Assembly (NCBI GenBank): GCA_008080745.1
Contig: SHMX01000003.1
Location: forward strand, 90,001 to 122,000
Length of the DNA stretch: 32,000 nucleotides
From: Candidatus Thorarchaeota archaeon
GTDB lineage: Archaea; Asgardarchaeota; Thorarchaeia; Thorarchaeales; Thorarchaeaceae
Reading direction: 5' to 3'
In this document: one piece after another, positions 9-31,521 of the stretch
Numbering within the stretch: position 1 is the first letter of the stretch
Layout: each line of letters starts with the position of its first letter
Position numbers and translations under genes: made by a program
The notes under the pieces: model-generated
Database searches by the model: none
What the model was told of the DNA's origin: nothing
Seen by the model: only the letters and a program-made list of their open reading frames with translations

Positions 9-3000
9 TTACTTAACAACATCTCGCTTTGGAATATGAATCAAAAAACTAATCGTCCGAGACTGGTCTAAGTTTATTTTCCATCCATGCGCCTCAATAA
101 TACGTTTAACGATTCGCAAACCAAGTCCCCCATGTTCCTTAGTACTTACTTGGGAATAGAACAATTTCTCTCGGATACCCTTTGGAATTTCCTCACCATC
201 ATTTGAGATAATTATTACAACCCTATCTTCACGTTGTTCCGTTCTTATTCTGATTTCCTTTGGTTGACCATGCTCCACTGCATTACTGATAATATTTTGG
301 AAGACTTGGACAATCTTTGCCGAGTCACATTCCACTAGTGGAAGTTCAGACATTTTTATTTCAATTGATGAGGGAATAGTTGTGTCTATTATGGACTGAA
401 GAACATCTTGAAGATTACAATGCTCACGTTCACCTATTATTAGACCAGCATCGGCCAGCTGGATAGATTGTTTCAATAAAATCTCCATCTGTTCAACCAT
501 CATTTTCATTCTTGATAGATGTTCTTGGTTATAGTCATCTTCCAGCAGAGAAATCAGACCCATCATGTTATGCAAAATATTAGTCACATCATGTTTCATT
601 TGATGCGTAAACTTAGATAGTTCATCTCGTTGTGCTTCTAGAGCAATTTTAGCCTCCATTTCTGCAGTTACATCTCGTGCTGACCCAATTATTCGAATCT
701 TCTCAGAGTCGGTGTCCACTTCCTGTACTGATCCAAAACCATGAATCCACCGCCAATTTCCATCAGGCATGTGAATTCGATAAATCAAATTCACCACATC
801 TATGGGGTATTGCAGTTGAAGAAGCTGTATGAAACGCTCTTGATCATCTGGATGTACCACTGATAAAAACCACTCCCATAGTTTTCTTGGGTTCTTGGAA
901 ATCGTTTCTCTAGTTAGTCCATGAAGTTCACGCCACTGTTTGCTGATATACGCATGACTCAGATCTGACCATAGTTCAAAATATCCGATTCCGGTTGCCT
1001 TCAGAGCGATACTCAATCGCTCCTGACTTTTGTTGAGAGCCTCTTCGGCCTTTACGTGGTCGGTTATATCTGTAGCAATCATTAATAGAATATCATCACT
1101 TACCTTTTTGAATTGCCAGATTAGGTGAAGACTATGGTCTTGTGTTATCATCTGATAGTGCGTATCAAAACGAATTGTATCATCGCTATGCATAGCTTCC
1201 CGTATTTTCTCTATGTATTGAGGACGCTCTTTGTACACCTCACCAAGACTCATTCCAATCAGATATTCCACTTTTCCATTTGACGCCTCGTATAGACTAG
1301 AATTGACTGCAATAAGCCTAATAGTTCCATCATCTTCTCTTTCCCAAACCTGAACATAGTCAGGAATTGAATTGAATAATGCTTTGAAAAATGCCTTTCG
1401 CTCAGATAATTCGGATGAAAGTTTCTCCCGCTCAGTAGTATCTCGAATACTGGTTCTGAATCCTAGCAGTTCACCAAATTCATTTCTCATCGGATTGAAT
1501 GACAGTGCCATCCATCGCTCTTCTCCGCTTTTATTGATGATTCGGAATGGAATGTCATTACCTTGAGAATCCCCTTTGGATGCCTCAGTAAGTATCTGAT
1601 GAATACGACTTCGGTCGTGCGGGTGGATAATAGGTAAGGGGTACTGTTCCATATCCATGCATTCATCTGTACTATAACCGGTGTGATTTTCAACCGCTTC
1701 ATTTACCCAAATCAGCTTGCCATCACAGCCTATCCAGCTTTCCCAATCATAGGTAGAATCTGCAATTATTCGGAAATATTGGTCCTGTATTTGTGTAGCC
1801 AATCCATCCAAATCACTGGTCACATCATGGATTATACAGTGACTCATTTCATAGGTACCATCTTTATTGTAAGATATTCGTCCATAAGCAGCTATATTTC
1901 TAATTTTACCATCCTTTCTAACCATTGAATATCGCACATCATCAGCTTTCCCAGTATCCTTGAAAAGATTGAAGTTTTCTTTGAAGAGTTCTCGATGGAT
2001 TTCAACAAGAAACTCTGAAAAATTACGACCTATAACCTCTTCTCGATCGTACCCCATTAATTGCTGCCATGCATCATTAACAGTGATAATCAATCCATCA
2101 ACATCTAGAGATTGATATGGTAATGGGGCTGATTCAAATAATGCCTTGAAATATGCAGTACGCTGCTTTATCATTTCCTCAGCATGAAATTCCTCGGTTC
2201 TATCTCTGAATACCACAAGTGCTGACTTTTGTCCATCGTAGTAAATTGGATTTAGATATGCTTCTAACCATTTTGTTTCCCCCGAGGGAGTGATTATCTT
2301 GTAATGTTTTTTCAGTGGCTCCTTGAACCCTTCCAGATACTCATCGTAATTGCGTGCAAGTTTGAGATGTTCGGATTTGTCAAGAAGTTCAGATAGAGAT
2401 TTCGAAGTCAGTTGATGCATCTGTTCTTGAGAGTACCCAAGCATATTGCTAGCTAATTCATTAGAAAACAATATTTTTGGTGGACTCAACCGAATAACCA
2501 GAATTCCTTGTGGGGATGAATGGATCAATGAATTTGCTAAATCCTCAATCATTCTTCTGGATTGGATTGCTTCTCTTTCAGTTGTAATATTGGATGCCAA
2601 GACAATAATACTCTTTCCATCTTCGTGCAGGCTTAGGTATGCCCGATACCACAATATTTCGCCATCGATTTCTAACCAATATTCCATTTTTTCAGTTGTT
2701 CCAGTATTTCGAATTCGTTCTGCTCGTTGAATATATACCTCAGAGATTCTTCTAGGCATTATTTCCTGAATTCGTTTTCCAAGAAACGTATCTATAGATA
2801 AAAATGGTCTAGAGGTAGGTGAACCTATGAATTCCACATACCTTTCTTGTTCATCTAAAACGAAAACCATATCTTGCATTGATTCTACCAAGACACGATT
2901 CAATAATCTAGTTTCTTCTAGGTCTCTTTTGATTCGAGTAAGAAGTATTGAAGATTGGATTGAGTGAGCCAATTCGGAATACATTGATTGAGGGTCTGCA

Positions 3001-3525: not shown

Positions 3526-4257
3526 ATGGAAGACGAATGTAGCCAATGGGAAAAACTTGCGGGTGAATTCGCAGAGAAGGAGAAATACTATCAAGCAGCA
3601 AACCAATATAGAAACTCTGCTGCATGCCACCTCGATAAGGTTCTGGAGATGACTAGAAAGGCAGCTGAGTATTATCATATGCATGCCGAAGCTAGTGCTG
3701 AAGCAGATGATCATAAATCTGCTGCAAGGTCATACTTTGAGGCAGCTAATCAATATCGGCAAGTTAGTGACTTTGCTACTGCTCTGACCCTCTTTGAAAA
3801 TGCAGCTTCTGAAGCCCTCGATGAAGGAATGACAGAAACCGCCGCATCTTCCTATCTTTGGGCAGCCTTTGCTTGCCACAAGCTGGGAAATACCGATTAC
3901 TTTCTAACTTGTGCTGAAAATATGGCCAATCTATATGACAAAGCAGCTGAGTCAGTTCTCGAAGAAGGAAAGGCAGAGAGAGCTGTCATCAACCTCTCAT
4001 TATCAGCCATGGGTTTTGCTACCATTGAAAAGGTTGATGAAGCAAAGAAACGCATTGAAAAGGCAAAACGAGTTATCGATAAGACTAGTTGGCCATGGCT
4101 AAAGACGCTTCTCTCGTTCAGTGACGACTTGGCAGAGGGACGCCTGATTGAAGCTGAAGATCAATGGAAGAGTTTCAAAGAAGAAGAAACCATCCAAGAG
4201 GTTATGAAGGCCTGCCATAGTATTATCGAGGACCGACAGAGAAGAGGGAAGAAGTGA
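3526..4257 (+). CDS. Alpha-SNAP-like / TPR alpha-solenoid protein
   Basis: Repeated AAxxYxxAA helical-hairpin pattern (AANQYRNSAAC, AARSYFEAANQY, AASSYLWAAF), typical of SNAP/TPR-like solenoids. Confidence 0.75.
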   Translation: MEDECSQWEKLAGEFAEKEKYYQAANQYRNSAACHLDKVLEMTRKAAEYYHMHAEASAEADDHKSAARSYFEAANQYRQVSDFATALTLFENAASEALDEGMTETAASSYLWAAFACHKLGNTDYFLTCAENMANLYDKAAESVLEEGKAERAVINLSLSAMGFATIEKVDEAKKRIEKAKRVIDKTSWPWLKTLLSFSDDLAEGRLIEAEDQWKSFKEEETIQEVMKACHSIIEDRQRRGKK

Positions 4258-4258
4258 C

Positions 4259-5506
4259 CTAAGTAACCTTGACGGTTACGGTCTTTGAAACCTCTTCACC
4301 AGTTTTTGTATCGATGAGTTTTAGTGTGGTAATTTGGTCACCAACATCCTCCGCCATGATGTATACTTGGAAGGACATTCTTTCACCAGCACCAAGAAAT
4401 TGTATGCTCTTCTCAGTTCCACCAAGGGAAATCCTTAGTCCATCTGATAGTTCTGTCCTAACAGTGATGTTTCCAGCAGGTCCATCTCCAGTATTTTGAA
4501 TCATAACATCAAATACAACTTCGTCACCAATATCTGCAGATACCCTTTGAGGGCTTACATCTAGAGCCAGCTTGGAAGGAGCCTTCCCAATTCTAAATTC
4601 AATAGCGTTACTATGTTTATTGACTAATACAGATTCTCCTTGAAGAGTTAATACAAAGGGACCTATTTTCCCATCTCCGCTTAATACTGGATTTACTACC
4701 AAGAGCCAGGATTCTTGGGTCTGATTCACGGCATTTAATGCAATATCATTTGCAAAAGAGAGGCTATTTGATAGATTGTATCTATAATCTACAATACTCA
4801 CGGGGACGGGGCATGAAAATTTTAGTTCAAATTCGATAGGGGTTTTTGCACTAACTTCGTATTGTTTTTGACCGGCCCATTGCAACTCTACTTCCGTCTG
4901 AATTGCAACCTTCACACTCTCAGCAACATAGTTTACCAAATAACTCTCAACTTCAGTAGGTTTTGCAGATGAGATGGCTTTTTGTATCTCCTTCAAAGTT
5001 GGTTCCTCACCATGGCACAACACACGTACACACAATTGGGCAAGTTCCATCATACCCTCTCTAGCCTTGATTGATTTGTATCGTTTGTCAGTCTTTTTGG
5101 TGATGTTGACACAGGTATCGAAGTTTCTTGTACCAAGATAACAAATGACTGCGAGTCCATTAGCTCGCATCGATTGTCTGATTTTCTTCTCTTTGAATAA
5201 ATGATCAGATGCCTCAGAATATAGGACTGCAGCCTCATCAAATCTCGCCTCAGTCAGGAGGGTACCAGCAGCAGCTAATTTCATCTCCGCAACTTTTACA
5301 TGATCATCAAAGTCTAGGGCAGCCCAAGCAGCCTCGCGAAAATATTTCACAGCAAAATCTGGACGGTCTGCCTCCTTGAACAAACGAGCAGCCTTCTCAT
5401 ATTCAGAACATGCATAGTCAGGATATCCTTCTTCGAACTCTTCGATGGCTTTCTCTACATGTTTTTTAGCTTTTGAAATCGGGTCTCTTTTAAAGAACTT
5501 GAACAT
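4259..5506 (-). CDS. N-terminal SNAP/TPR-like solenoid plus two C-terminal Ig-like beta-sandwich domains (DUF11/CARDB-like)
   Basis: N-terminal YEKAARLF / YFREAAW / LYSEAS repeats. C-terminal VVFDVMIQNTGDGPAGNITV...FLGAGERMSFQV matches the NTG/LxxGE pattern of CARDB/DUF11 Ig folds. No signal peptide or TM helix seen. Confidence 0.75.
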   Translation of the reverse strand: MFKFFKRDPISKAKKHVEKAIEEFEEGYPDYACSEYEKAARLFKEADRPDFAVKYFREAAWAALDFDDHVKVAEMKLAAAGTLLTEARFDEAAVLYSEASDHLFKEKKIRQSMRANGLAVICYLGTRNFDTCVNITKKTDKRYKSIKAREGMMELAQLCVRVLCHGEEPTLKEIQKAISSAKPTEVESYLVNYVAESVKVAIQTEVELQWAGQKQYEVSAKTPIEFELKFSCPVPVSIVDYRYNLSNSLSFANDIALNAVNQTQESWLLVVNPVLSGDGKIGPFVLTLQGESVLVNKHSNAIEFRIGKAPSKLALDVSPQRVSADIGDEVVFDVMIQNTGDGPAGNITVRTELSDGLRISLGGTEKSIQFLGAGERMSFQVYIMAEDVGDQITTLKLIDTKTGEEVSKTVTVKVT

Positions 5507-5586
5507 ACTTTAGTCCTCGAATATCTCTATGGCTTAGTCTTGAGATTTCAAGCTCCGCTATATCGGTTTCGGCTGATGTGATTACA

Positions 5587-6792
5587 ATGATGAATGAACC
5601 CCCATACTGGCGAGAACCACTACATGAAGTCTTCACAGTCACAGTAAGGTCTTGTATCAAAGAGAAGAAGGAATATCTCATAGAAATAGCAGAAGATGTT
5701 ATTCGAGCTGCTGGTGGGGGACAGGACGGAGATAGAGGGATATTGAGAATTAATGGTCAAGAGGTTTCAATACTGAACACCGCAAAGCAGGATAGTCGTT
5801 TGCTACTAATCACAGAAGAGCCGGTTGAGCCAGACCAAGTAGTTCAATTGGTGATAGACCTCAAGTGGCGAAAAGCTATGATGCAAAATCATACTGCTGA
5901 ACATCTGTTTGTTGCAACGATGAAAAAAATCAGCCCGTCCTACAAATTGGGATATATTTGGATTGACGGAGAGAAAGGTGTTGTAGATATTATGGGTCCT
6001 CCTTTAGACTTTGAAACAGTAGTAAAAGCAGAGAAAGAAGTCACGAGATTGATAGAGGCTAGGATACCCGTAGAGATAGAAATTGTAGATGCTGCGGAAT
6101 TGGATGACGAGGTACGCGCAAGAGAGGGGTTAGCTAGCAAACATGAAAAAGTCAGGATAGTACAGGTAGGGGACTATGACAGCTCGGCTTGCTCGGGGAC
6201 ACATGTCTTTAACACATATGATATTGAAGCATTCAAAGTAATCGATTATCGAACTGTTGAAGGCGGCACTCGAATAGAATTTCTAACTTCGTCCAGAGCT
6301 TTAGAGGAAATGGTAAAGGTGTATAACACGACCTTGGAAAAAAAACATAGTTATCCATATGAGATGGACCAATTAGGAGACATACTCGATAAAGCAAAAG
6401 AGCTAATACATGAACGCCAGTGGATTGTGCAGCATCTTAGTAGACTAATGACAGAGGGTAAGAATATCGAATCAATTGAAAACACAGATTTCTGGACGGA
6501 ATACCTCCCAGGTCTTGATATGAAAGAGGTTAGGTCTATAATTAGGGACTATCCAATGGAGGGCAAACTAGCAATTCTGTTCTTTCTGCCTGGTGTGAAG
6601 TCAAGTCTAATATTCTGGACTAATGAACTGCCTGAAGATGCTTCACATTATATCTCAGATATTGTGACCAGTTTGGGTGGCAGAGGTGGAGGAAGCAGAG
6701 ATGTCTATACGGGAGGATTTGCTGATTCACCAAACCCAGAAGAGATCTATAATGAAATCATTAGCCAACTACGAAAGCGATTGACTTCTTAG
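5587..6792 (+). CDS. alaX: AlaX-L alanyl-tRNA editing protein (trans-editing domain plus C-Ala/DHHA1)
   Basis: GGGQDGDRG, zinc-binding HTAEH (HxxxH), CSGTH (CxxxH) and C-terminal GGRGGG. The ORF track starts at GTG 5578; ATG 5587 is preferred. Confidence 0.93.
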   Translation: MMNEPPYWREPLHEVFTVTVRSCIKEKKEYLIEIAEDVIRAAGGGQDGDRGILRINGQEVSILNTAKQDSRLLLITEEPVEPDQVVQLVIDLKWRKAMMQNHTAEHLFVATMKKISPSYKLGYIWIDGEKGVVDIMGPPLDFETVVKAEKEVTRLIEARIPVEIEIVDAAELDDEVRAREGLASKHEKVRIVQVGDYDSSACSGTHVFNTYDIEAFKVIDYRTVEGGTRIEFLTSSRALEEMVKVYNTTLEKKHSYPYEMDQLGDILDKAKELIHERQWIVQHLSRLMTEGKNIESIENTDFWTEYLPGLDMKEVRSIIRDYPMEGKLAILFFLPGVKSSLIFWTNELPEDASHYISDIVTSLGGRGGGSRDVYTGGFADSPNPEEIYNEIISQLRKRLTS

Positions 6793-6794
6793 GA

Positions 6795-7259
6795 CTACTC
6801 TAAGCTATGCTTGCTAGCCACCTCTGTCCAGAACTTTTTCACCGCCCATGGCACAGCAAGAAATTCTTCTCGAAACATATCGAAATTGAGACCCTGTACC
6901 ATCATCTCTTGTGAGGTTCCAATAATCTCACGAGACTCATCGAAATCAAAGCATACCTCAGCATATCTGCGGTTACATGCTAAAAGGTCCAAGAATACTT
7001 CTCGCCGAATGGCCTCTGGAATTTTCTCAAGGGGGTATACATCACAAAAGACCTGAATCCACTTTTCATCGGGTTTCACTGTAATGGTATATCTGAAATG
7101 TTCCTCAGCCTCTTCAGGAAGTGGACTTGCAGGTAATTCGTCTTTTCTTTCACTGAATACCAGTTCGAATATCCCCTCACGCTCATTCCAAGTATGTTTC
7201 AGTTTGAGCAATTCAAGGTAATCCTCTATCTGAGTCCTAATTTCTACCATAGCTTTCAT
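6795..7259 (-). CDS. YbjN / type III secretion chaperone-like domain protein
   Basis: 154 aa alpha-beta layout, with LLACNRRYAEVCFDFD matching the YbjN LLxxN...F pattern. Confidence 0.65.
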   Translation of the reverse strand: MKAMVEIRTQIEDYLELLKLKHTWNEREGIFELVFSERKDELPASPLPEEAEEHFRYTITVKPDEKWIQVFCDVYPLEKIPEAIRREVFLDLLACNRRYAEVCFDFDESREIIGTSQEMMVQGLNFDMFREEFLAVPWAVKKFWTEVASKHSLE

Positions 7260-7313
7260 CTCTTGGAATCAAATCATCAGATGGTTTGATTTAAGCGTAT
7301 TGTGAAATTAGAA

Positions 7314-8921
7314 TTAGAGAGTATATGAATCAAGAATTGAAACCTTACTCCAATTTACATAGTATACAGACATGGTGTCACGGCCACTAATCACATTATC
7401 ATCAAGATGAACTGTCAGTAGAATTTCTAGTCCAGAGCCAAGGAGAAAAGAATAGTAAACCATCAATTCATTGAAGAATACAAAATATTCACATCCATGT
7501 TCACGGAGATAGATCAGAAGTTCAATAGAACTCATATTTCCATGTATGATATCTGGACTTACAAGTCCTGCCAAATCAATTATGCTTCTATTTGAAAAGA
7601 ACCTGATAGCACCAGCGTCATGAATTGCCAATACTGCATCCTCTGGTGTGTTTTCTGATAACCACTTTCCAATGTATACCTGCTGTTCGTTTATATTTTT
7701 AACAGAGTTGCCAAACAGATTTGCTTGGAATAAATATTCTGATAGGAGGGGAATAATCATTACCAACAGAATAACGAATACAGTCAATAACTGACGGTCA
7801 GCAGGTCGCTTTATTCCAATGTCAACTTCTAGGATATATGGAGCAATCTTAGCAATCGCAACAATAGCTGTGATGAAGAAAAAGCTGAATACAGGAACCA
7901 AATATCTGCCATTATTTATCAATGCATTATATGGAAGATTCAAACGATAAAGCAGAACGAGTCCAACAGCGATTAGCCAAGTGAACGGCTTTTTGTTCAC
8001 TACAAGTGCTAACCCCAAAATCCCTCCTATCAAGATGAATGGATATTCAATTAGCCATATATTCCACCAAAACCTCCACACATCGATTTCATACTCTGTA
8101 GGGGTATGCACTTTAGCATAGAATGTATCAGGTAAGGGATATCCCGTAGTATTCAGACAATGTATAATCCATGGAGAAACGATAAGGAGAGCGATAACAG
8201 CCATAAGAACAAAAGAAACCCATCGTTTCCAATTTGTTAGTTCTTCTCTGTCCAATAGGAAAAATCTTACAGGAACAAAGAGAGCTAAAATCACCCCCTC
8301 TGGACGTGCTAAGAAAGCTAATCCTACCGTAATACCCAGAAGCGGATCGTATCGGATATCCTTCTTATCAAGCAAAACAACACCAAAGACCAAAAGGAAC
8401 ATGAAAAGCGGAGTCTCCATTCCAGAAAGCATCAACCATGTTGTTCTTGGGACAATAACAAAGCCTACCATTCCAGTTATCGCTATCAGAAGCCTCTCGG
8501 AATAATTGAAGATAATATATCCAACAAGAAGTGTGGTCAGAAAATAGAATAGCCCAGCAATGAGATAGGTACCATAAATCAGGCTGATAGGATCTTGAGT
8601 GATAAAGAAGAGCGTTGAGAGAATTACAGACCAGAGGGGGCTTGTTGAACCAGTGCTTGGATGACCCGGTGAATATTCCCAAGGTATGCCTTGATATATA
8701 GTCCGAGCATATTGGAGATGAATCCAAGAATCATCTAACGTGAACCCAGGAGAAGTCCATGCAATCATGGTAGTGAGATAATGGACACATGAAACTGTAG
8801 TAATTATCAATGCTGATATGAACAAACGTGTAATCGCAGATGACTCTTTGAACCTGTGACAGATTGATACCAGAAAACCTGGAAAGGCATACCTCCTCAA
8901 GCTCTGTTCTTCCTCGTTCAT
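7314..8921 (-). CDS. Polytopic GT-C-fold glycosyltransferase-like membrane protein
   Basis: DDSWIHLQYARTIYQG after TM1, SGMET, RPEG, GRY and C-terminal DAGAIRFFS...IDLAGLV motifs. About 11-13 hydrophobic segments. Confidence 0.75.
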   Translation of the reverse strand: MNEEEQSLRRYAFPGFLVSICHRFKESSAITRLFISALIITTVSCVHYLTTMIAWTSPGFTLDDSWIHLQYARTIYQGIPWEYSPGHPSTGSTSPLWSVILSTLFFITQDPISLIYGTYLIAGLFYFLTTLLVGYIIFNYSERLLIAITGMVGFVIVPRTTWLMLSGMETPLFMFLLVFGVVLLDKKDIRYDPLLGITVGLAFLARPEGVILALFVPVRFFLLDREELTNWKRWVSFVLMAVIALLIVSPWIIHCLNTTGYPLPDTFYAKVHTPTEYEIDVWRFWWNIWLIEYPFILIGGILGLALVVNKKPFTWLIAVGLVLLYRLNLPYNALINNGRYLVPVFSFFFITAIVAIAKIAPYILEVDIGIKRPADRQLLTVFVILLVMIIPLLSEYLFQANLFGNSVKNINEQQVYIGKWLSENTPEDAVLAIHDAGAIRFFSNRSIIDLAGLVSPDIIHGNMSSIELLIYLREHGCEYFVFFNELMVYYSFLLGSGLEILLTVHLDDNVISGRDTMSVYYVNWSKVSILDSYTL

Positions 8922-25735: not shown

Positions 25736-27352
25736 CTATTCTATCAAACGTTCAATAATGGATGTAAGCAGAGTCCTGAGTTCAGGTTTCAAATCTTTTC
25801 CATGACTAAGCTCTACAAGAGCAGTAGCACCATCCTTGTCCATTCTAAGAACTTCTATTGCATCTCCCATTTCATCAACGTGTGCCTGAAACTTAGCTCC
25901 TCCAGTTGCCTCCGGAATGGCAATTATGCCCATTTGAGCGCCTCCAGCGTCAAGCTGATCCTTCACTCTTTTAGCTGAATAATAAGCTGCCACCCCACCA
26001 CTGCGGTCCCAGTCTCGAACATTAGGTACATCAATACAGAGTTTGGTTTTGGAAGAGTCCTTAGTTACTTCGAGTACTGCCGATGAAGCACTGGAACTAT
26101 CATCTGCCTCGACAACAAGTCTAACCTCTGCACCAATCTCACGAGAGGCTTCCTGCAATCCTGCCATTATTGCTCCCAAGACAGTAGTTGAGGTAAGTTT
26201 AATGACATAATCTGGTTGTGGTTCTGGCTCAACAGGAGCTCTATCATATACAATCGAGTCGAGTTTTGGAATCAGTCGTTTGATTGCCTCACGAGGAACC
26301 CCCTGTGATTCAACAAAAACCTCATCCAAATCATCTTCGGTGAAGGGGAAAATAGGATCAGGTGGTGCAACTACGTTTTGTTGTTGCCAATAATCCTCCA
26401 TTGTTTTCTTTACAAATTCAACAACATCTTCCTTTGTGAAAGGTCTAAGATTAGCCGGAACCTCCATTCTTGAACGCATGGGCGCATCTGCAATGTTGTA
26501 GATACGGTCCCAAATTTCAGTCAAACATGAAGCGACAATGACCATATTCTTGCATTCATTGTACAATCGTTTTATGACCTCTAAGAAATGGCGCTCTCCC
26601 TCTTCACCATGAGTGTTGTAGGGACCCTCCATCTCATCAACAAATAAGAGAATTGGCTTATTATATCCCTCAGCTAATAAGCGAAGTGTGGCTAGAGTGA
26701 CGTCATCCTCTTCAAGAATGGTTCGCACCCCTAATTTTTCAATTTCTTCCTCACTCAATGAGTTACCAAATAGCCAACGTCTGGCAAGATGTTTCAAATC
26801 AGGATCTAACCGATATCTCAAAAGAACAGTCACTACATCAGCGGATATGCCAGGATATTCTCCTAAAAGTCGATCCATAGCATAAGAGAAGTCCATTTGT
26901 TCGTGGGTGGACCCCTTAACTCCACCAAATCGCGTTATCAACATGTCTACTGCTTTCTCAAAGATGTCATCACCAGCTTCATCCACAAGACAAGCATGGA
27001 AATGTAATGGAACTCTTACTGGTGCCGGTGGGGATGGAACATAAACTGCAAGATATCCTTGATGCCCAACTTCATCTTCTTGGTCTTTGAGTACCCAGAA
27101 TAAGTGAGTCTTTCCGAGACCTGCACTACCAAGAACTGGTTGAAATCGTGTGCGGTTATCTTTCAGTGTAAATCGAATAGCTCTCTCAATTGCTCTGTCA
27201 GCATTCTGATGCGGACCTACAATATCAATCTCATCACGAGTATCACCTCGTGAAACATAGCTCTTCATTGGTAATTCTTCTTTGAGTATATCAAAGTAGA
27301 TTCCTTTCTCAAAATCATCCGAATGGTCGGCGCGTTCCTCCATCTCTCTCAT
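25736..27352 (-). CDS. Single-domain AAA+ (Cdc6/STAND-like) ATPase with uncharacterised C-terminal alpha/beta domain
   Basis: Walker A GSAGLGKT, Walker B LLFVDEME, arginine-finger-like MRSRM and sensor-2-like GVPRE. Confidence 0.85.
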   Translation of the reverse strand: MREMEERADHSDDFEKGIYFDILKEELPMKSYVSRGDTRDEIDIVGPHQNADRAIERAIRFTLKDNRTRFQPVLGSAGLGKTHLFWVLKDQEDEVGHQGYLAVYVPSPPAPVRVPLHFHACLVDEAGDDIFEKAVDMLITRFGGVKGSTHEQMDFSYAMDRLLGEYPGISADVVTVLLRYRLDPDLKHLARRWLFGNSLSEEEIEKLGVRTILEEDDVTLATLRLLAEGYNKPILLFVDEMEGPYNTHGEEGERHFLEVIKRLYNECKNMVIVASCLTEIWDRIYNIADAPMRSRMEVPANLRPFTKEDVVEFVKKTMEDYWQQQNVVAPPDPIFPFTEDDLDEVFVESQGVPREAIKRLIPKLDSIVYDRAPVEPEPQPDYVIKLTSTTVLGAIMAGLQEASREIGAEVRLVVEADDSSSASSAVLEVTKDSSKTKLCIDVPNVRDWDRSGGVAAYYSAKRVKDQLDAGGAQMGIIAIPEATGGAKFQAHVDEMGDAIEVLRMDKDGATALVELSHGKDLKPELRTLLTSIIERLIE

Positions 27353-27457: not shown

Positions 27458-28354
27458 TCAAGATTTTAGTTCAACCTCATTCTCTTCAAGTTGCTTAAGA
27501 GCAGGTTTATTCTTACGTAACCAATTGGAACCAATAGCAGAGAACAACACGTAAGCGGGTATCACCACAAGCATTGCATGAAAGGGAATAAGAAAGACAC
27601 TGATAGCATCAAAATCGAGTCCAACACTCATGAAATAATCATACATCACAAACAGCGACAGAATTGTAGAAAATCCAGCAAATCCTTTCAGATAACTAGA
27701 ATATGATCTATATACGGGTTCGATTTCATACAGCTGTCCAGACTCTTTGGGAGGTAATTTATAATGTATAAGACCCGCATCTTCTAGAGCCCACCCAACA
27801 GACCATAGAGCAACAGTAATCGGTGTAGCAATCCCAGCTATACAGAAAATGTACGATATATTATAGAGGGGATTTATCCCACTAGTAAAGACATCATTGG
27901 TAAGAAACAATTGAGGGTCAAATAGATTGAGTAGAGTAGTAAGTAGACCTACCACTAACAAATAGACATAGACCAAACGCATAATCATTCTAGTTGTACT
28001 GAAACCGGAGATATTCATAGGTACGTAACCATCATTATACCCGCGTCTGAGTACTTTTTTAATTATCATAAACAATGGCGTCAATATCCGGGGGAAAATA
28101 AGAACCGCGAGAATACTTCCGCCTAAAGGAATGGCAATCCAAAAAATCAGATAGGTAATGGATGAATCCAGATTGAAGATAGGAACTATTCCAGCCGGGG
28201 CAAGACTACCGCTAGATAGTCCCACAGTCACTAGGGAAAGTTCCGCAATTGCAATGAACAGTAGAATGATTGCAGGGATATTCTTTGTCAAATAATTAAA
28301 ACCTCCAAGTCGCGACATCATAGAAGATGCACGATATAAAAAAATGGGATACAA
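27458..28354 (-). CDS. Polytopic membrane protein, unknown function
   Basis: About six hydrophobic segments. The start may lie a few codons downstream (MMSR at about 28322). Confidence 0.7.
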   Translation of the reverse strand: MYPIFLYRASSMMSRLGGFNYLTKNIPAIILLFIAIAELSLVTVGLSSGSLAPAGIVPIFNLDSSITYLIFWIAIPLGGSILAVLIFPRILTPLFMIIKKVLRRGYNDGYVPMNISGFSTTRMIMRLVYVYLLVVGLLTTLLNLFDPQLFLTNDVFTSGINPLYNISYIFCIAGIATPITVALWSVGWALEDAGLIHYKLPPKESGQLYEIEPVYRSYSSYLKGFAGFSTILSLFVMYDYFMSVGLDFDAISVFLIPFHAMLVVIPAYVLFSAIGSNWLRKNKPALKQLEENEVELKS

Positions 28355-28465: not shown

Positions 28466-29179
28466 TTGGCACGTAGACCAACATTTCTAACAGTTTCATA
28501 TTCTGGTTCAGGCCTAGATACTATGGACCATGAAAAGCGTATGGTACACGAGAAAGATGTCAAATTCGATAACGAAGATGGCTCAATGGAAGTTACCGAT
28601 GTACGTCTTGTATGGTTCAAAAAACCATCGAGATGGGGTGGTGCAAAGAAATTTGGAGCACTCGCTGGTGCTATTGCTGGAGCTGCTATTCTTGAGGGGG
28701 TTGGAAGAGAAGTGGGAGGAATTGGCGGTAGAGCAATCCGTGGTGTCGGACGTGGGATTGGATATGCAGCTGTAGGTACAGCTATCTCTTCGTGGACTCG
28801 GGATTCATTTTACAACAAGGATTCAAATGGTAATACAGAAAGTATTGCAATCCCATTGATGGCAATTGCTACTGCGGAACAGAGTGGGAATAAACTTGTT
28901 GTAGATCTTAAAGCGGGTGGAAATATGATCTTTGAGTTTAAACAGAAGAAGGTCATTCCAAGTTTTAAGGCAAATATCACCCAAGCAATGCAAGTGGGTA
29001 AATGTCCTTATTGTGGCGCAAAAGCAGGAAATGCAGCTAGTTGTCCTCAATGCGGAGCTCCTATCGAAGGAGGCGGTGTGGGTGGAGAATCCGGCGGTGG
29101 CGGAGGTTTCTGTACCAACTGCGGTCAATCAATTCCAGCTGGTGCAAAATTCTGTGGTGGCTGCGGACAAAAAGCATAA
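28466..29179 (+). CDS. PH/GRAM-like domain split by a glycine-zipper segment, plus C-terminal double zinc ribbon
   Basis: GSMEVTDVRLVWFK and IAIPLMAIATAE (PH-like halves), a GxxxG-rich insert, and CPYC..CPQC and CTNC..CGGC knuckles. Confidence 0.7.
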   Translation: MARRPTFLTVSYSGSGLDTMDHEKRMVHEKDVKFDNEDGSMEVTDVRLVWFKKPSRWGGAKKFGALAGAIAGAAILEGVGREVGGIGGRAIRGVGRGIGYAAVGTAISSWTRDSFYNKDSNGNTESIAIPLMAIATAEQSGNKLVVDLKAGGNMIFEFKQKKVIPSFKANITQAMQVGKCPYCGAKAGNAASCPQCGAPIEGGGVGGESGGGGGFCTNCGQSIPAGAKFCGGCGQKA

Positions 29180-29180
29180 G

Positions 29181-29224
29181 ATAAGTTATGGGGTTCCGAC
29201 CCCATCTTATTCTCTTTTTTTTTT
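29181..29224 (+). terminator. Hairpin plus T10 tract
   Basis: ATAAG-tt-ATGGGGT-TCCG-ACCCCAT-CTTAT, then TCTC and ten T. Confidence 0.75.
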
Positions 29225-29281
29225 AATCTAATTCATAAATAGAGAGCGGAGAATGGTTCTATAAAAGAACCATTTCCTGTA

Positions 29282-30109
29282 CTAAAAACTTCGTGCTACC
29301 CTTCCAAGACCATTATAATCAACTGGACTGGTATCAAAGCCCTGTAGCTCTGCTAATGTTAGTAGATATGGAATCTGGTCTACCTCAATCATTATCCTTC
29401 TGGATAACTCAGTATCAAGAATTGATTCATCAATCTCAGAAAGAATCTCTTTCAGTTTCTTATAGGAGTAGAGTATCTTACTAACCTGATATGTAAACCG
29501 GAAATATGAACTATCCTCCTTCAGACTATCTTTTATCATGTCCTCAACCACCTTGGTCTTGCAATCCACACACTTGTTCATGATTTTCTTCATTTGGAGG
29601 GAGAAGACTAATGAATCAGATGGCATATTAGCGATTTCATTATGAGAAATCACATCAATTAGATTCATCTGATCAGAGAAAAGTTTCTCTATTCTTCCTT
29701 GCACAGCTTTACCAATTGAGAAGTCGTCATGTACTAAATAGATAGGCTTGCTGAGAAGTACATGCGTAATTAAGATGCTGAAATTTCGTATCGCATTTTT
29801 CCGTTTATCTCCAAAGGTATCAATCAGAGTACCAAAACTGATATCGGATTCCTCAAATGAGGTTGCAACAGTAGATTCGATTATAGTGGTTCTCTTCCGT
29901 TCCACTCGTAATTGTGAGGGATACTCGATACCCCTAACACGATATTCTTTGTCAATATACACAACGATTCCATGTTCCGGTTCTCCATGGATAGAGAGCA
30001 CCGTGGCTAGTCCTGAGGATTGAGATTGAACCTCACCTTCATTAACATCAATTCCAATGTTCTCTTGGCACTTTTTACAGTAAGCAAATACAGTTCTTTT
30101 TTCTGTCAC
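29282..30109 (-). CDS. CxxC...H..H putative metal-binding domain plus possible DENN-like alpha/beta domain
   Basis: YCKKC...IHGEPEHGIVVYIDKEYRVRG, then ITHVLLSKPIYLVHDD...RIEKLF. GTG 30109 has SD GAGGTGG overlapping the upstream stop; the ORF track start is 30139. Confidence 0.7.
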   Translation of the reverse strand: MTEKRTVFAYCKKCQENIGIDVNEGEVQSQSSGLATVLSIHGEPEHGIVVYIDKEYRVRGIEYPSQLRVERKRTTIIESTVATSFEESDISFGTLIDTFGDKRKNAIRNFSILITHVLLSKPIYLVHDDFSIGKAVQGRIEKLFSDQMNLIDVISHNEIANMPSDSLVFSLQMKKIMNKCVDCKTKVVEDMIKDSLKEDSSYFRFTYQVSKILYSYKKLKEILSEIDESILDTELSRRIMIEVDQIPYLLTLAELQGFDTSPVDYNGLGRVARSF

Positions 30110-30119
30110 TAATACCACC

Positions 30120-30785
30120 TCATTCACGAAGAATACCATATGTCATAGTCAAAAGTCCAACCATGCTGACAAGTGGTACAATAACAGCCAAGTGCGCAAT
30201 TGAATCAATCATCTCAGCAGTAATGAAAATAGTATATCCCACAAGAAGTATCAGAGTTCGGGTTCGGAAGGTAGGATCCTTTTCACGAAGGACTACAAGT
30301 AAAAGAATGCCGATATTAACAAACGACTCAAATATAATTACACCAAGTATTGCCATTGGCATTCTAAAATTCGAAGCACCATCAACGACACCTGTGAATT
30401 CGATTTCCAATGTCCCCAAAATAAATGCAGCATAGCCAGCCAAGAGCCACATTGCCGCCATAACCACCAGAATAATTTTCTGCTTAGTGGTTTCTCGGTA
30501 TTGAACACTCAGAGGATAGAGTAAGAAGCTACTGAAGAGCGCTGTAACTATCAAACCTAGACTCAGTCCAGCCTTCGATAGCAAAGCATCTTCGATACCT
30601 GCAGGTTCAAAAAAGCCTTTTGAGAAGTTTAGTAGCATGGAAACTGCAAATAGAAGAATAAAAATAACAAAGACTAGAGTTAAGGGATTTCTATTGGAAG
30701 CATATTTTTTTCCCACTGCAGCAGTGGCTATGAAAAGAGCTACAGCAGAAATGAGAGATATATAATGTATAAGTGCAAATGCCAT
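30120..30785 (-). CDS. Stand-alone seven-TM membrane protein (HisKA_7TM-like sensor module)
   Basis: Seven hydrophobic segments across 221 aa, a basic loop after TM1 (KKYASNRN), and no cytoplasmic output domain. Confidence 0.75.
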   Translation of the reverse strand: MAFALIHYISLISAVALFIATAAVGKKYASNRNPLTLVFVIFILLFAVSMLLNFSKGFFEPAGIEDALLSKAGLSLGLIVTALFSSFLLYPLSVQYRETTKQKIILVVMAAMWLLAGYAAFILGTLEIEFTGVVDGASNFRMPMAILGVIIFESFVNIGILLLVVLREKDPTFRTRTLILLVGYTIFITAEMIDSIAHLAVIVPLVSMVGLLTMTYGILRE

Positions 30786-30960: not shown

Positions 30961-31521
30961 ATGGGCAAAGTCAAAGACCCAATCGCTAAGCGCATTCGGA
31001 AGAAAGCTGCTAAAGATATCAAAGGTGGCTTCTTTGGGAAGATTACACACTATATCCCCGGATGGCACGGATATCAAGAGAAAGAAGAACGCCGAGCCGC
31101 TGATAAAGTACTTCGAGAGTTTATTGCAGATCAGCTTAGACTGGTCAAGCAGGATCTTGAGAAGCTTCAGATGATGGCTGTGGATTATGACCTAAGCAAG
31201 ACTTGGGAAACGTTCGATAGGATGCTAAATCTGTGCGATAAGATGGAATCATCAATTAGATATGCAGATTACGGCTATGCCGCTTGGGGAAGCAAAGAGA
31301 AAGTCAATGAAGGCGAGCTTGACAATATGTACGAGTTCGATGCTACACTGATTGAGGACATCGGTGCAATCAATGATGTTGCAGAAGAGTTCCTGGATCA
31401 GATGAACCAAGGGCAGTTCGACCAAGCTTGGAACTACACCTACCGAATGTGGCAGATCATGCAGCGTCTCGAAGAGAAATGGAATCAGAGAGAAGGCTAC
31501 ATGAAAGGTTATCAGGATTAA
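30961..31521 (+). CDS. Conserved helical hypothetical protein (IPGxxGYxxKExRRxADKxLR motif)
   Basis: Clean ORF with CAGGAG SD and a TATA-like TTTTAAAA at 30877-30884. The motif is recalled from prokaryotic hypothetical proteins. Confidence 0.8.
   Translation: MGKVKDPIAKRIRKKAAKDIKGGFFGKITHYIPGWHGYQEKEERRAADKVLREFIADQLRLVKQDLEKLQMMAVDYDLSKTWETFDRMLNLCDKMESSIRYADYGYAAWGSKEKVNEGELDNMYEFDATLIEDIGAINDVAEEFLDQMNQGQFDQAWNYTYRMWQIMQRLEEKWNQREGYMKGYQD

What the first reader, a model, noticed from the sequence alone, without database searches (positions are those of the whole stretch)
29282..30785. Stand-alone 7TM protein translationally coupled to a CxxC/His plus DENN-like cytoplasmic protein: candidate receptor-to-GTPase module
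Seen: the 7TM gene's TGA (30120-30122) overlaps the SD GAGGTGG of the next gene (GTG 30109), indicating coupling. The 7TM protein has no output domain. The partner has CKKC...HGEPEH...YIDKEYRVRG, then ITHVLLSKPIYLVHDDFSIGKAVQGRIEKLF, and a helical, HTH-like end. Established: the core DENN module has a helix-strand-helix signature (roughly LxxLLLExxIxxxS...LxxLL) and DENN proteins act as GEFs for Rab-type GTPases. DENN/longin-type proteins and many small GTPases are reported from Asgard archaea. Inference: a membrane sensor signalling through a DENN-like partner would be a prokaryotic analogue of receptor-to-small-GTPase signalling. The DENN resemblance is weak and by eye only.
Basis: partly seen in the sequence, partly recalled or inferred. 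Interest (0 to 1): 0.7.

Follow-up and report, generated by a model that had tools for sequence, protein, structure and literature searches.

The report
Asgard 7TM plus DENN-fold GTPase regulator
An Asgard archaeon carries a tightly packed gene pair, a seven-helix sensor-like membrane protein and a zinc-binding protein whose core folds like eukaryotic DENN GTPase regulators; sister copies of the pair sit beside a dedicated Rab-like GTPase, which gives a concrete, testable membrane-to-GTPase module.

Summary
The two minus-strand genes (7TM 30785-30120; partner 30109-29282) lie 10 nt apart, with the stop codon inside the next gene's Shine-Dalgarno sequence. The partner has three parts: a Zn-binding beta domain (C-x2-C...H-G-x-P-x-H), a compact alpha/beta domain and a helical end. 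The last two fold like cDENN plus dDENN: the six best solved structures are all DENN modules (Z 6.9-10.0), and an independent ESMFold model gives the same answer. No sequence method sees DENN, and the N-domain is not shown to be a longin. The 7TM protein resembles the HisKA_7TM input module of bacterial sensor kinases (TM 0.75-0.82) but has no output domain. The pair is adjacent in 11 of 16 readable loci, and the two protein trees agree. In 6 loci a Rab-like GTPase of one distinct subfamily is also adjacent. The window's own copy has none, but its closest outgroup does. The Zn-beta domain is an Asgard-wide module found beside GTPase genes. Asgard DENN-GTPase operons were published in 2020/21, and this scan has noted similar 7TM-GTPase modules in other genomes. 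This is a new variant of a known kind. GEF or GAP activity and 7TM-partner binding remain untested.

The parts
30120..30785 (-). Gene for a stand-alone seven-helix membrane protein (221 aa, P0001). It is predicted N-out/C-in and has conserved cytoplasmic loops (KKYxxxRNxLTL after TM1, RExDPxFRxR after TM5).
   Evidence: ORF and translation; seven hydrophobic segments; family alignment A3. The Atlas model matches HisKA_7TM input modules at TM 0.75-0.82. P0001 has no Pfam hit.
30110..30122 (-). Junction between the two genes: stop TGA (30122-30120) overlapping the SD-like GAGGTGG, then a 5-nt spacer before GTG 30109.
   Evidence: Sequence read directly. Gaps in the window clade are 8-13 nt.
29282..30109 (-). 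Gene for the cytosolic partner (275 aa from GTG 30109, P0003; stop at 29284-29282). An alternative in-frame ATG lies at 30139.
   Evidence: AF2 model: pLDDT 83.4, pTM 0.80.
29912..30109 (-). N-terminal Zn-binding beta domain (residues 1-66; strand-strand-helix-strand-strand-strand). C11, C14, H41, G42 and H46 are invariant; P44, D53 and R59 are nearly invariant.
   Evidence: Alignment A2 of 44 domains. Stand-alone model has pLDDT 94.6. No clear solved relative. The nearest named fold is bacterial Zn_ribbon_21, TM 0.63. In other proteins the domain is found beside small-GTPase genes.
29846..29911 (-). Variable linker, predicted disordered (residues 67-88).
   Evidence: pLDDT below 50 for residues 68-88; poorly conserved columns in A1.
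29522..29845 (-).
   Evidence: Structural matches to DENND10, DENND1A, FLCN, C9orf72 and SMCR8 over model residues 88-260; Atlas matches.
29285..29521 (-). Helical C-terminal region (residues 197-275). It aligns with dDENN in the DENN matches and on its own also resembles winged-helix domains. It ends in the conserved tail NGLGRVARSF (29314-29285).
   Evidence: The tail is present in all partners that have an adjacent 7TM gene and absent in the clade without one.
29252..29274 (.). Perfect 9-bp inverted repeat 7 nt past the partner's stop codon. It may mark the end of the transcription unit; this was not tested.
   Evidence: Inverted repeat I2.

Best explanation
The two genes form one unit: a membrane-coupled regulator of small GTPases. 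The first product is a stand-alone seven-helix membrane protein with the shape of the HisKA_7TM sensor module that bacteria fuse to kinases and cyclases. Here it has no output domain of its own. The second product is soluble. Its N-terminal zinc-binding beta domain is an Asgard-wide module that accompanies small GTPases and is most likely the part that docks the GTPase. The rest is a compact DENN-fold module, most likely the part that acts on the nucleotide state, by analogy a guanine-nucleotide exchange factor. The membrane protein would hold or control the regulator at the membrane, possibly through its conserved cytoplasmic loops and the regulator's conserved C-terminal tail. The regulator would switch a Rab-like GTPase of one particular subfamily. 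In this copy the GTPase gene is not adjacent. The candidates are the genome's five members of that subfamily, above all the three tandem genes on contig C1 at 529-531 kb. Shown here: the gene anatomy, the folds, the conserved linkage and co-divergence of the 7TM and partner genes, and the linkage of both the family and its N-domain to one GTPase subfamily. Inferred: physical binding, the direction of signalling, GEF rather than GAP activity, and what the membrane protein senses.
For: Fold. The model has pLDDT 83. The top Foldseek hits are DENND1B-Rab35 (E 1.8e-4, prob 0.99), DENND1A, DENND10 and FLCN. The six best of 48,161 chains are all DENN modules, Z 6.9-10.0 over 155-171 residues. An independent ESMFold model gives TM 0.71 to a Heimdall folliculin-like cluster and 0.58-0.61 to eukaryotic DENN clusters.

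7TM protein. It matches HisKA_7TM input modules of histidine kinases and GGDEF/EAL proteins at TM 0.75-0.82. One of 8 family members has a weak Pfam HisKA_7TM hit, E 0.018.

Linkage. The 7TM gene lies directly upstream of the partner in 11 of 16 loci. The cassette is 7TM-GTPase-partner in L002, L006, L011 and L012. The closest outgroup of the window clade (L026) has a divergent GTPase next to 7TM-partner. The 7TM and partner trees share the same supported clades. The genome has exactly two clear 7TM family members, both next to partner paralogues. A third, divergent partner paralogue (hhalign prob 84% over 237 columns) follows another seven-helix protein and faces three tandem GTPases.

GTPase subfamily. 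Five of the genome's 31 Ras-like ORFs form a separate group (170-305 bits against 95 or less), and all five lie next to a protein with the N-domain.

The N-domain is fused elsewhere to a borderline DUF742-like end and to V4R domains. DUF742 (MfpC) is reported as a GEF in PMC11343762, and V4R is the fold of TRAPPC3 (PMC10933270).
Against: No sequence method links the protein to DENN. No A1 member has a Pfam DENN or folliculin hit at E up to 10. PF02141 finds nothing in 151 Asgard genomes. Comparison with Asgard folliculin-like proteins gives hhalign probability 0.1. The PDB sequence search is empty. The rmsd of the DENN alignments is high (4.3-5.6 A), and the alpha/beta core is a common three-layer arrangement (secretion ATPases score Z 6.2). 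The N-domain is not a recognisable longin, so the eukaryotic uDENN-cDENN-dDENN architecture is incomplete. The window's own pair has no GTPase within the 32 kb; the nearest on the contig is about 116 kb away. Three orthologous loci have the partner alone, next to msrA. DENN-family proteins in eukaryotes are GEFs, GAPs or scaffolds, so the fold does not fix the activity. The loci sampled are close relatives and are not independent.
Confidence: 0.6

Rival explanations
1. Same module, different chemistry. The partner is a GTPase-activating protein or a non-catalytic scaffold or effector rather than an exchange factor. The invariant arginine of the Zn-beta domain (R59 in the VRG motif) would serve as an arginine finger, as in the longin domains of FLCN, SMCR8 and NPRL2.
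For: D53 and R59 are at least 90% conserved in 44 N-domains. FLCN, C9orf72 and SMCR8, which belong to GAP complexes, are among the best structural matches. Eukaryotic longin GAPs use an arginine finger, and Asgard longins keep it (PMC12290439).
Against: The arginine sits in a zinc-ribbon-like sheet, not in a longin. The classical DENND1 Rab GEF scores as high as FLCN. The other fusion partners of the N-domain (DUF742-like, V4R) point to exchange-type complexes.
Confidence: 0.25
2. The 7TM protein is not a receptor. It is only a membrane anchor or platform that localises the regulator, as LAMTOR1 anchors Ragulator, or it is a transporter-like protein whose state is not relayed.
For: No ligand site or extracellular domain is evident, and the outside loops are short. 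Family conservation is concentrated in the cytoplasmic loops. Pfam does not recognise the protein as HisKA_7TM.
Against: Its closest structural relatives are input modules of bacterial signalling proteins. It co-diverges with the partner, which a generic anchor need not do.
Confidence: 0.3
3. The partner is a membrane-controlled transcription factor. The zinc ribbon and the C-terminal winged helix would bind DNA, and the 7TM protein would sequester or release it. GTPases would not be involved in this copy.
For: Residues 208-268 match many winged-helix DNA-binding domains at Z 4.6-5.9. Zinc ribbons are common in archaeal DNA-binding proteins. This copy has no GTPase neighbour.
Against: The same C-terminal helices are covered by the higher-scoring DENN alignments, which reach residues 254-267. 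The N-domain tracks GTPase genes, not regulons. Orthologues and paralogues carry the GTPase inside the cassette.
Confidence: 0.07
4. The DENN likeness is convergence on a common alpha/beta-plus-helices arrangement and says nothing about homology or function. The family would be a lineage-specific protein of unrelated role that happens to neighbour GTPases in some genomes.
For: No sequence-level signal; high rmsd. A published search also called the DENN fold widespread across life (PMC13392464).
Against: All six top matches belong to one superfamily, and they stand above the unrelated chains in three searches and two independent models. The genomic link to a dedicated GTPase subfamily is just what a DENN-type regulator predicts.
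Confidence: 0.12

Closest known systems
Asgard DENN-domain proteins and the predicted operon of Roadblock (LAMTOR1-like) protein, Rab-like GTPase and DENN protein (Liu et al., bioRxiv 10.1101/2020.10.19.343400; published in Nature 2021)
   Same: An Asgard archaeon, a DENN-fold protein, and a Rab-like small GTPase encoded in the same cassette (seen here in paralogous and orthologous loci). The predicted role is GTPase regulation.
   Different: The cassette's first gene here is a seven-helix membrane protein, not a Roadblock protein. The DENN-fold protein starts with a zinc-binding beta domain instead of a longin and is invisible to Pfam DENN and folliculin models. The held text of that paper does not mention a transmembrane partner. 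Its Figure 5b and tables could not be read, so I cannot exclude that this architecture is drawn there.
Eukaryotic DENN modules: DENND1A/B-Rab35 (PDB 3tw8, 6ekk), DENND10 (8p0v), folliculin C-terminal domain (3v42, 6nzd), C9orf72-SMCR8 (7o2w, 6lt0)
   Same: The fold of residues 88-260 (alpha/beta core followed by helices), Z 6.9-10.0, and the association with Ras-superfamily GTPases.
   Different: About half the size and only 6-14% identity. There is no longin/uDENN domain and no sequence-profile relationship. The activity is unknown.
Actinobacterial conservon, or actinobacterial G-protein system (CvnA sensor kinase-like membrane protein, CvnB Roadblock, CvnC DUF742, CvnD Ras-like GTPase; PMC13343842, PMC13621833; MfpC as GEF, PMC11343762)
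   Same: [quoted passage not shown] The related N-domain protein at L003 has a borderline DUF742-like end.
   Different: No kinase domain and no Roadblock gene in these cassettes. The regulator is DENN-fold, and the membrane protein is a bare 7TM bundle. The lineage is archaeal.
HisKA_7TM (Pfam PF16927), the N-terminal seven-helix input region of bacterial histidine kinases and GGDEF/EAL proteins
   Same: Seven helices and the predicted bundle shape (TM 0.75-0.82).
   Different: It stands alone, without a fused output domain. The Pfam model does not detect the window's protein.
Other 7TM-small GTPase-longin/DENN modules noted earlier by this scan in Heimdall-group and Thorarchaeota genomes (for example e1-5394819, e1-2482984, e1-5448455)
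   Same: The theme: seven-helix membrane proteins encoded with an Asgard small GTPase and a longin- or DENN-fold regulator. Small zinc proteins occur in some of them.
   Different: The gene families and gene orders differ. Those notes are unchecked AI readings and were not used as evidence here.

Membership tests
DENN superfamily (uDENN/longin + cDENN + dDENN; includes FLCN, FNIP, SMCR8, C9orf72) | cDENN alpha/beta core followed by a helical dDENN region | tested here: met
   VIA-align: DENND10 Z 10.0 (159 aa, rmsd 5.0), DENND1A 9.9, FLCN 9.3 and 9.2, C9orf72 7.1, SMCR8 6.9; the next unrelated chain scores 6.2. Foldseek prob 0.99-1.00. ESMFold-model matches TM 0.58-0.71. This is fold level only.
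DENN superfamily (uDENN/longin + cDENN + dDENN; includes FLCN, FNIP, SMCR8, C9orf72) | Detectable sequence or profile similarity to DENN or folliculin families | tested here: not met
   None of 17 family members has a Pfam DENN, uDENN, dDENN or Folliculin hit at E up to 10. PF02141 finds nothing in 151 Asgard genomes. hhalign against Asgard folliculin-like proteins gives prob 0.1. The PDB profile search is empty.
DENN superfamily (uDENN/longin + cDENN + dDENN; includes FLCN, FNIP, SMCR8, C9orf72) | N-terminal longin (uDENN) domain | tested here: inconclusive
   The N-domain has the longin strand order (strand-strand-helix-strand-strand-strand) but lacks the two C-terminal helices and binds zinc. 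The best solved match is Z 3.9 and no longin is listed. The nearest named fold is Zn_ribbon_21, TM 0.63.
DENN superfamily (uDENN/longin + cDENN + dDENN; includes FLCN, FNIP, SMCR8, C9orf72) | Acts on a Ras-superfamily GTPase (GEF or GAP) | not testable with these tools
   Genomic association only: a GTPase of one subfamily is adjacent in 6 of 16 loci, and all 5 subfamily members in this genome lie beside N-domain proteins.
Asgard Roadblock-Rab-like GTPase-DENN operon (Liu et al. 2020/21) | Three co-directional genes: Roadblock-superfamily protein, Rab-like GTPase, DENN protein | tested here: not met
   The GTPase and DENN-fold genes are adjacent in L002, L006, L011 and L012, but the first gene is a 7TM protein. 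The window copy has 7TM plus DENN-fold only.
HisKA_7TM (PF16927) | Seven-helix bundle of that shape | tested here: met
   Seven hydrophobic segments. Atlas structure search TM 0.75-0.82 to clusters in which 35-94% of members carry PF16927.
HisKA_7TM (PF16927) | Match to the Pfam model | tested here: not met
   P0001 has no hit at E up to 10. One of 8 family members scores E 0.018, below the threshold.
HisKA_7TM (PF16927) | N-terminal input fused to a cytoplasmic output domain (kinase, GGDEF/EAL) | tested here: not met
   The protein ends 4 residues after TM7.
Actinobacterial conservon (CvnA-D) | Sensor kinase-like membrane protein, Roadblock protein, DUF742 protein and Ras-like GTPase in one operon | tested here: not met
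   No kinase domain, Roadblock or DUF742 hit in the window pair. hhalign relates the partner to the DUF742-like L003-type proteins only through the N-domain. It is analogous in logic, not a member.

The most novel reading that the evidence does not exclude
A stand-alone HisKA_7TM-type receptor directly controls, through the partner's conserved C-terminal tail, a minimal DENN-fold exchange factor. The zinc-beta domain of that factor is a previously unnamed GTPase-docking module specific to one Asgard Rab-like subfamily. This would be a complete archaeal receptor-to-GEF-to-small-GTPase pathway. It would also show that the DENN core existed with a non-longin GTPase-binding domain before, or beside, the eukaryotic longin-DENN architecture.
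Probability: 0.2. Interest if true: 0.8.

Novelty: new variant of a known kind. Interest (0 to 1): 0.58.

Why it matters
Asgard archaea encode dozens of small GTPases, but it has been hard to say which regulator serves which GTPase. One published structural study states that gene order rarely helps (PMC10933270). This family is an exception. The same three components recur as a cassette, duplicate together and co-diverge: a seven-helix membrane protein, a DENN-fold regulator and one distinct Rab-like subfamily. That names specific proteins to express together. It also gives a direct test of whether DENN-fold proteins already regulated GTPases at membranes before eukaryotes arose, and of whether a bare bacterial-type 7TM input module can signal through a non-covalently attached partner. 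Finally, it picks out a small zinc-binding domain that marks GTPase-associated proteins across Asgard genomes and that no domain database names.

Tried and rejected
Complex prediction of the 7TM protein with the partner (both as alignments): median score 0.20, no verdict. It is not used either way.

Expression: no RNA holder is listed for the stretch. Only two DNA runs hold it, and they are probably the source sample.

Sequence routes to DENN all failed: Pfam and NCBIfam on the window proteins, Pfam on all 17 family members, a PDB profile search, PF02141 across 151 Asgard genomes (and the control genomes did not ring either), and hhalign against nine Asgard folliculin-like proteins found with PF11704.

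N-domain as longin or roadblock: the stand-alone model (pLDDT 94.6) found no solved relative. VIA best Z was 3.9, and Foldseek found nothing below E 1.

C-terminal helices as a DUF742 relative: hhalign against L003-type proteins aligned only the N-domain.

Homology of the third seven-helix protein (P0045) to the 7TM family: hhalign prob 2.8%. I call it only 'another seven-helix protein'.

dN/dS against the sister species: synonymous sites are saturated, so there is no ratio.

N-domain proteins of about 280 aa from other lineages (P0032, P0043) share only the N-domain, and their contigs were too short to be informative.

The word-indexed homologue search found only the sister-species orthologues of both proteins.

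Literature: no paper in the held library links a 7TM protein to an Asgard GTPase or DENN cassette. The Nature version of Liu et al. and its supplements are not held.
Full report
**Anatomy**

The finding covers two co-directional genes on the minus strand. The upstream ORF (30785..30120) encodes 221 residues. A 19-residue hydropathy scan gives seven hydrophobic segments. The Lys/Arg-rich loops fall after TM1, TM3 and TM5 and at the C-terminus, which implies an N-out, C-in topology, and there is no soluble domain.

The minus strand reads ...CGT GAA TGA GGTGG TATTA GTG ACA GAA.... The stop codon (30122-30120) therefore lies inside a GAGGTGG Shine-Dalgarno-like motif, 5 nt ahead of GTG 30109. An in-frame ATG at 30139 also exists. 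However, the database gene model (275 aa) and every homologue begin at the GTG position.

The unit is bounded by a divergent gene upstream (30961, plus strand) and a convergent gene downstream (ending at 29179). A perfect 9-bp inverted repeat (29252-29274) lies 7 nt past the partner's stop codon.

Neither protein matches any Pfam or NCBIfam model.

**The partner protein**

An exhaustive HMMER search found 40 relatives, of which about 14 are full-length cluster representatives. In the alignment of 17 full-length sequences (A1), H41, G42, H46, D53 and R59 are invariant and C11 and C14 are nearly so.

AlphaFold2 on this alignment gave a confident model (pLDDT 83.4, pTM 0.80) with three parts:
- a strand-strand-helix-strand-strand-strand domain (residues 1-62), in which the CxxC knuckle and the HGxPxH hairpin face each other;
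- a disordered linker (68-88);
- an alpha/beta domain (92-196) followed by helices (201-275).

Foldseek against the PDB ranked DENND1B-Rab35 first (E 1.8e-4, prob 0.99), then DENND1A, DENND10 and folliculin.

An aligner that does not depend on Foldseek compared the model with 48,161 chains. Its six best rows were all DENN modules, each covering model residues about 88-260:
- DENND10, Z 10.0
- DENND1A, Z 9.9
- folliculin C-terminal domain, Z 9.3
- FLCN in the lysosomal complex, Z 9.2
- C9orf72, Z 7.1
- SMCR8, Z 6.9

The first unrelated chain was a secretion ATPase at Z 6.2.

The ESM Atlas holds its own ESMFold model of this protein. Residues 88-275 of that model match a Heimdall cluster in which 23% of members carry Pfam Folliculin (TM 0.71), and eukaryotic DENN clusters (TM 0.58-0.61). 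Unrelated rows stay at or below 0.35.

So two predictors and three search methods agree that the middle and C-terminal parts have a compact cDENN-plus-dDENN fold.

**Limits of the DENN assignment**

The likeness is at fold level only:
- None of the 17 family members hits a DENN or folliculin Pfam model, even at E 10.
- PF02141 finds nothing in 151 Asgard genomes.
- A profile of nine Asgard folliculin-like proteins, collected with PF11704, does not align with A1 (hhalign prob 0.1).
- The PDB sequence search is empty.
- The rmsd values are high (4.3-5.6 A).

The C-terminal 60 residues on their own also resemble winged-helix domains (Z 4.6-5.9).

**The N-terminal domain**

I modelled this domain alone from 44 sequences (A2). 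C, C, H, G and H are invariant, and P44, D53 and R59 are at least 90% conserved. The model is very confident (pLDDT 94.6).

It has no clear solved relative: the best VIA score is Z 3.9 and Foldseek finds nothing below E 1. In the Atlas it matches several Asgard-only clusters at TM about 0.85, and the bacterial Zn_ribbon_21 family at TM 0.63.

It has the strand order of a longin core but lacks the longin helices. I therefore do not call it a uDENN.

Its genomic behaviour is the informative part:
- Short proteins carrying it sit next to small-GTPase genes in nine further loci from several Asgard families (L003, L017-L022, L024, L025).
- It occurs fused to a borderline DUF742-like winged helix.
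- It occurs fused to V4R domains.
- It occurs in tandem copies.

DUF742 (MfpC) has been reported as a GEF in the mycobacterial conservon (PMC11343762). V4R is the fold of TRAPPC3 (PMC10933270). From this I infer that the zinc-beta domain is a docking module that brings different exchange-type domains to a GTPase.

**The membrane protein**

The Atlas model of the 7TM protein (pTM 0.78) matches, over its whole length, clusters whose members carry HisKA_7TM (PF16927) ahead of histidine-kinase or GGDEF/EAL outputs (TM 0.75-0.82). At sequence level, only one of eight family members gives a weak HisKA_7TM hit (E 0.018).

Within the family, conservation is strongest in the cytoplasmic loops after TM1 and TM5.

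**Linkage**

In the window's own genome the partner has a 34%-identical paralogue. There the cassette is 7TM, then a 173-residue Ras/Rab-like GTPase with intact G motifs, then the partner. The two 7TM proteins are homologous (27% identity, E 7e-19), and they are the only two clear members of the family in the genome.

Full-length partners were found in 10 of 25 genomes of the same taxonomic family, the window's genome included, and in none of the 16 genomes searched outside it.

Reading 16 loci gave the following arrangements:

| Arrangement | Loci |
|---|---|
| 7TM-GTPase-partner | L002, L006, L011, L012 |
| 7TM-partner | window, L009, L008, L010, L013, L027 |
| divergent GTPase, then 7TM-partner | L026 |
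| split GTPase-partner, no 7TM | L028 |
| partner alone, beside msrA | L014, L015, L016 |
| contig too short to read | L029 |

L026 is the closest outgroup of the window clade.

The partner tree and the 7TM tree recover the same supported groups, so the two genes have diverged together. The GTPase gene has come and gone within the clades.

A conserved C-terminal tail, (D/N)GLGRAxRS(I/F), is present in every partner that has a 7TM neighbour, and also in L028. It is missing from the msrA-adjacent clade. Because that clade is a single lineage, this counts as one event and is only a lead.

**The GTPases**

Of 31 Ras-like ORFs in the genome, five form a separate subfamily: 170-305 bits against a profile built from the cassette GTPases of five loci, versus 95 or less for the rest. 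All five lie beside a protein with the N-domain:
- one is in the paralogous cassette;
- one is next to the N-domain/DUF742-like protein of L003;
- three are in tandem on contig C1.

The three tandem genes face a 262-residue protein that is a distant full-length relative of the partner (hhalign prob 84% over 237 columns). That protein is itself preceded by another seven-helix membrane protein.

None of the 32 Ras-family (PF00071) matches in the genome falls within the 32-kb window; the nearest on the same contig is about 116 kb away. The window pair therefore either acts on one of these unlinked GTPases or has lost its client.

**Mechanism proposed**

I propose that the unit encodes a membrane-coupled small-GTPase regulator:
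- The sensor-shaped 7TM protein holds or controls the soluble partner at the membrane.
- The partner's zinc-beta domain docks a Rab-like GTPase of the dedicated subfamily.
- The DENN-fold part changes the GTPase's nucleotide state, most simply as an exchange factor.

What is shown: the folds, the linkage and the co-divergence. What is inferred: binding, the direction of signalling and the enzymatic activity.

A GAP or scaffold role is a serious alternative. FLCN and SMCR8 are among the best matches, and the N-domain has an invariant arginine. A role of the 7TM protein as a mere anchor is another.

**What is known already**

DENN-domain proteins in Asgard archaea were published by Liu et al. 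(bioRxiv 10.1101/2020.10.19.343400), together with a predicted operon of a Roadblock (LAMTOR1-like) protein, a Rab-like GTPase and a DENN protein. That paper also mentions further DENN paralogues with non-eukaryotic architectures. Its held text does not mention a membrane-protein partner, and I could not read its Figure 5b or its tables.

The logic of sensor plus regulators plus small GTPase is that of the actinobacterial conservon (PMC13343842, PMC13621833).

Earlier notes of this scan describe related 7TM-GTPase-longin/DENN modules in Heimdall-group and Thorarchaeota genomes. They also flagged the paralogous partner as DENN-like. Those notes are unchecked and served only as leads. They do mean that the theme has been seen before on other DNA. 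The same notes call this genome Thorarchaeota, while the sister genome's NCBI label reads 'Candidatus Lokiarchaeota archaeon'.

**Verdict**

It is a new variant of a known kind. The new points are:
- the coupling to a bare HisKA_7TM-like membrane protein;
- the zinc-beta domain in the place of a longin;
- the clean genomic pairing of regulator, membrane protein and one GTPase subfamily.

Interest is moderate to high for those who work on Asgard cell biology. It is limited by prior publication of Asgard DENN-GTPase operons and by the absence of any biochemical evidence.

Noticed in passing
L044 (G000 contig C1 525000-534500): 4249-6261 (+), 6310-7098 (-), 7114-7782 (-): Three tandem Rab-like GTPase genes of the cassette subfamily converge on a second unit. 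That unit is a seven-helix membrane protein (P0045, 222 aa) followed by a 262-aa distant relative of the partner (P0046), in which HGxPxH is replaced by ECDH. They are candidate client GTPases for the window's pair.
   Followed up: partly
L003 (G000 contig C6): 2284..1685, 1788..1234, 1232..621, all minus strand: A GTPase is followed by a protein with the same Zn-beta domain and a borderline DUF742-like winged helix (26.5 bits, cut-off 27). Next comes a protein with a sub-threshold V4R hit (E 1.6e-5). The arrangement resembles a conservon or TRAPP-like set built around the same N-domain.
   Followed up: partly
P0033, P0037, P0042; P0036, P0038: The Zn-beta domain is also fused to V4R domains (E 1e-13 to 1e-17). 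In two proteins it occurs as a tandem pair.
   Followed up: no
G000: C6 33738-33992 (-), C1 364201-364428 (+), C1 161339-161542 (+), C2 30568-32787 (-): These are weak hits of the N-domain HMM to small (67-84 aa) CxxC proteins and to one 739-aa protein. Two of them directly adjoin other Ras-like GTPase genes (C6 34047-34607, C2 32819-33670). They may be the 'small zinc proteins' of the GTPase-longin-double-7TM operons noted earlier by this scan.
   Followed up: no
L028: 2387-2635 and 2647-2916 (+): The cassette GTPase upstream of partner P0008 is split into two ORFs, through a stop codon, a frameshift or an assembly error. No 7TM gene is adjacent there.
   Followed up: no
window 29527-29568 (-), partner residues about 181-194: A second CxxC (CVDC) occurs inside the cDENN-like domain. 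It is present only in the window clade (window and sister species) and gives a weak second hit of the N-domain HMM.
   Followed up: no
window 30961-31521 (+): The divergent upstream neighbour (186 aa) has a sub-threshold match to the NCBIfam LIMLP_15305 family (E 8.7e-10, 38.8 bits, cut-off 210). Otherwise it is unannotated.
   Followed up: no
window 25736-27352 (-) and 27458-28354 (-): A 538-aa protein has weak archaeal ATPase_2/STAND-like hits (E 2e-4), and next to it lies a 298-aa multi-pass membrane protein with no family match. They lie on the same strand as the finding but are separated from it by a plus-strand zinc-ribbon gene.
   Followed up: no
window 29170-29216: An imperfect 13-nt inverted repeat followed by a run of T lies at the end of the convergent plus-strand gene (28466-29179). 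It looks like that gene's terminator.
   Followed up: no
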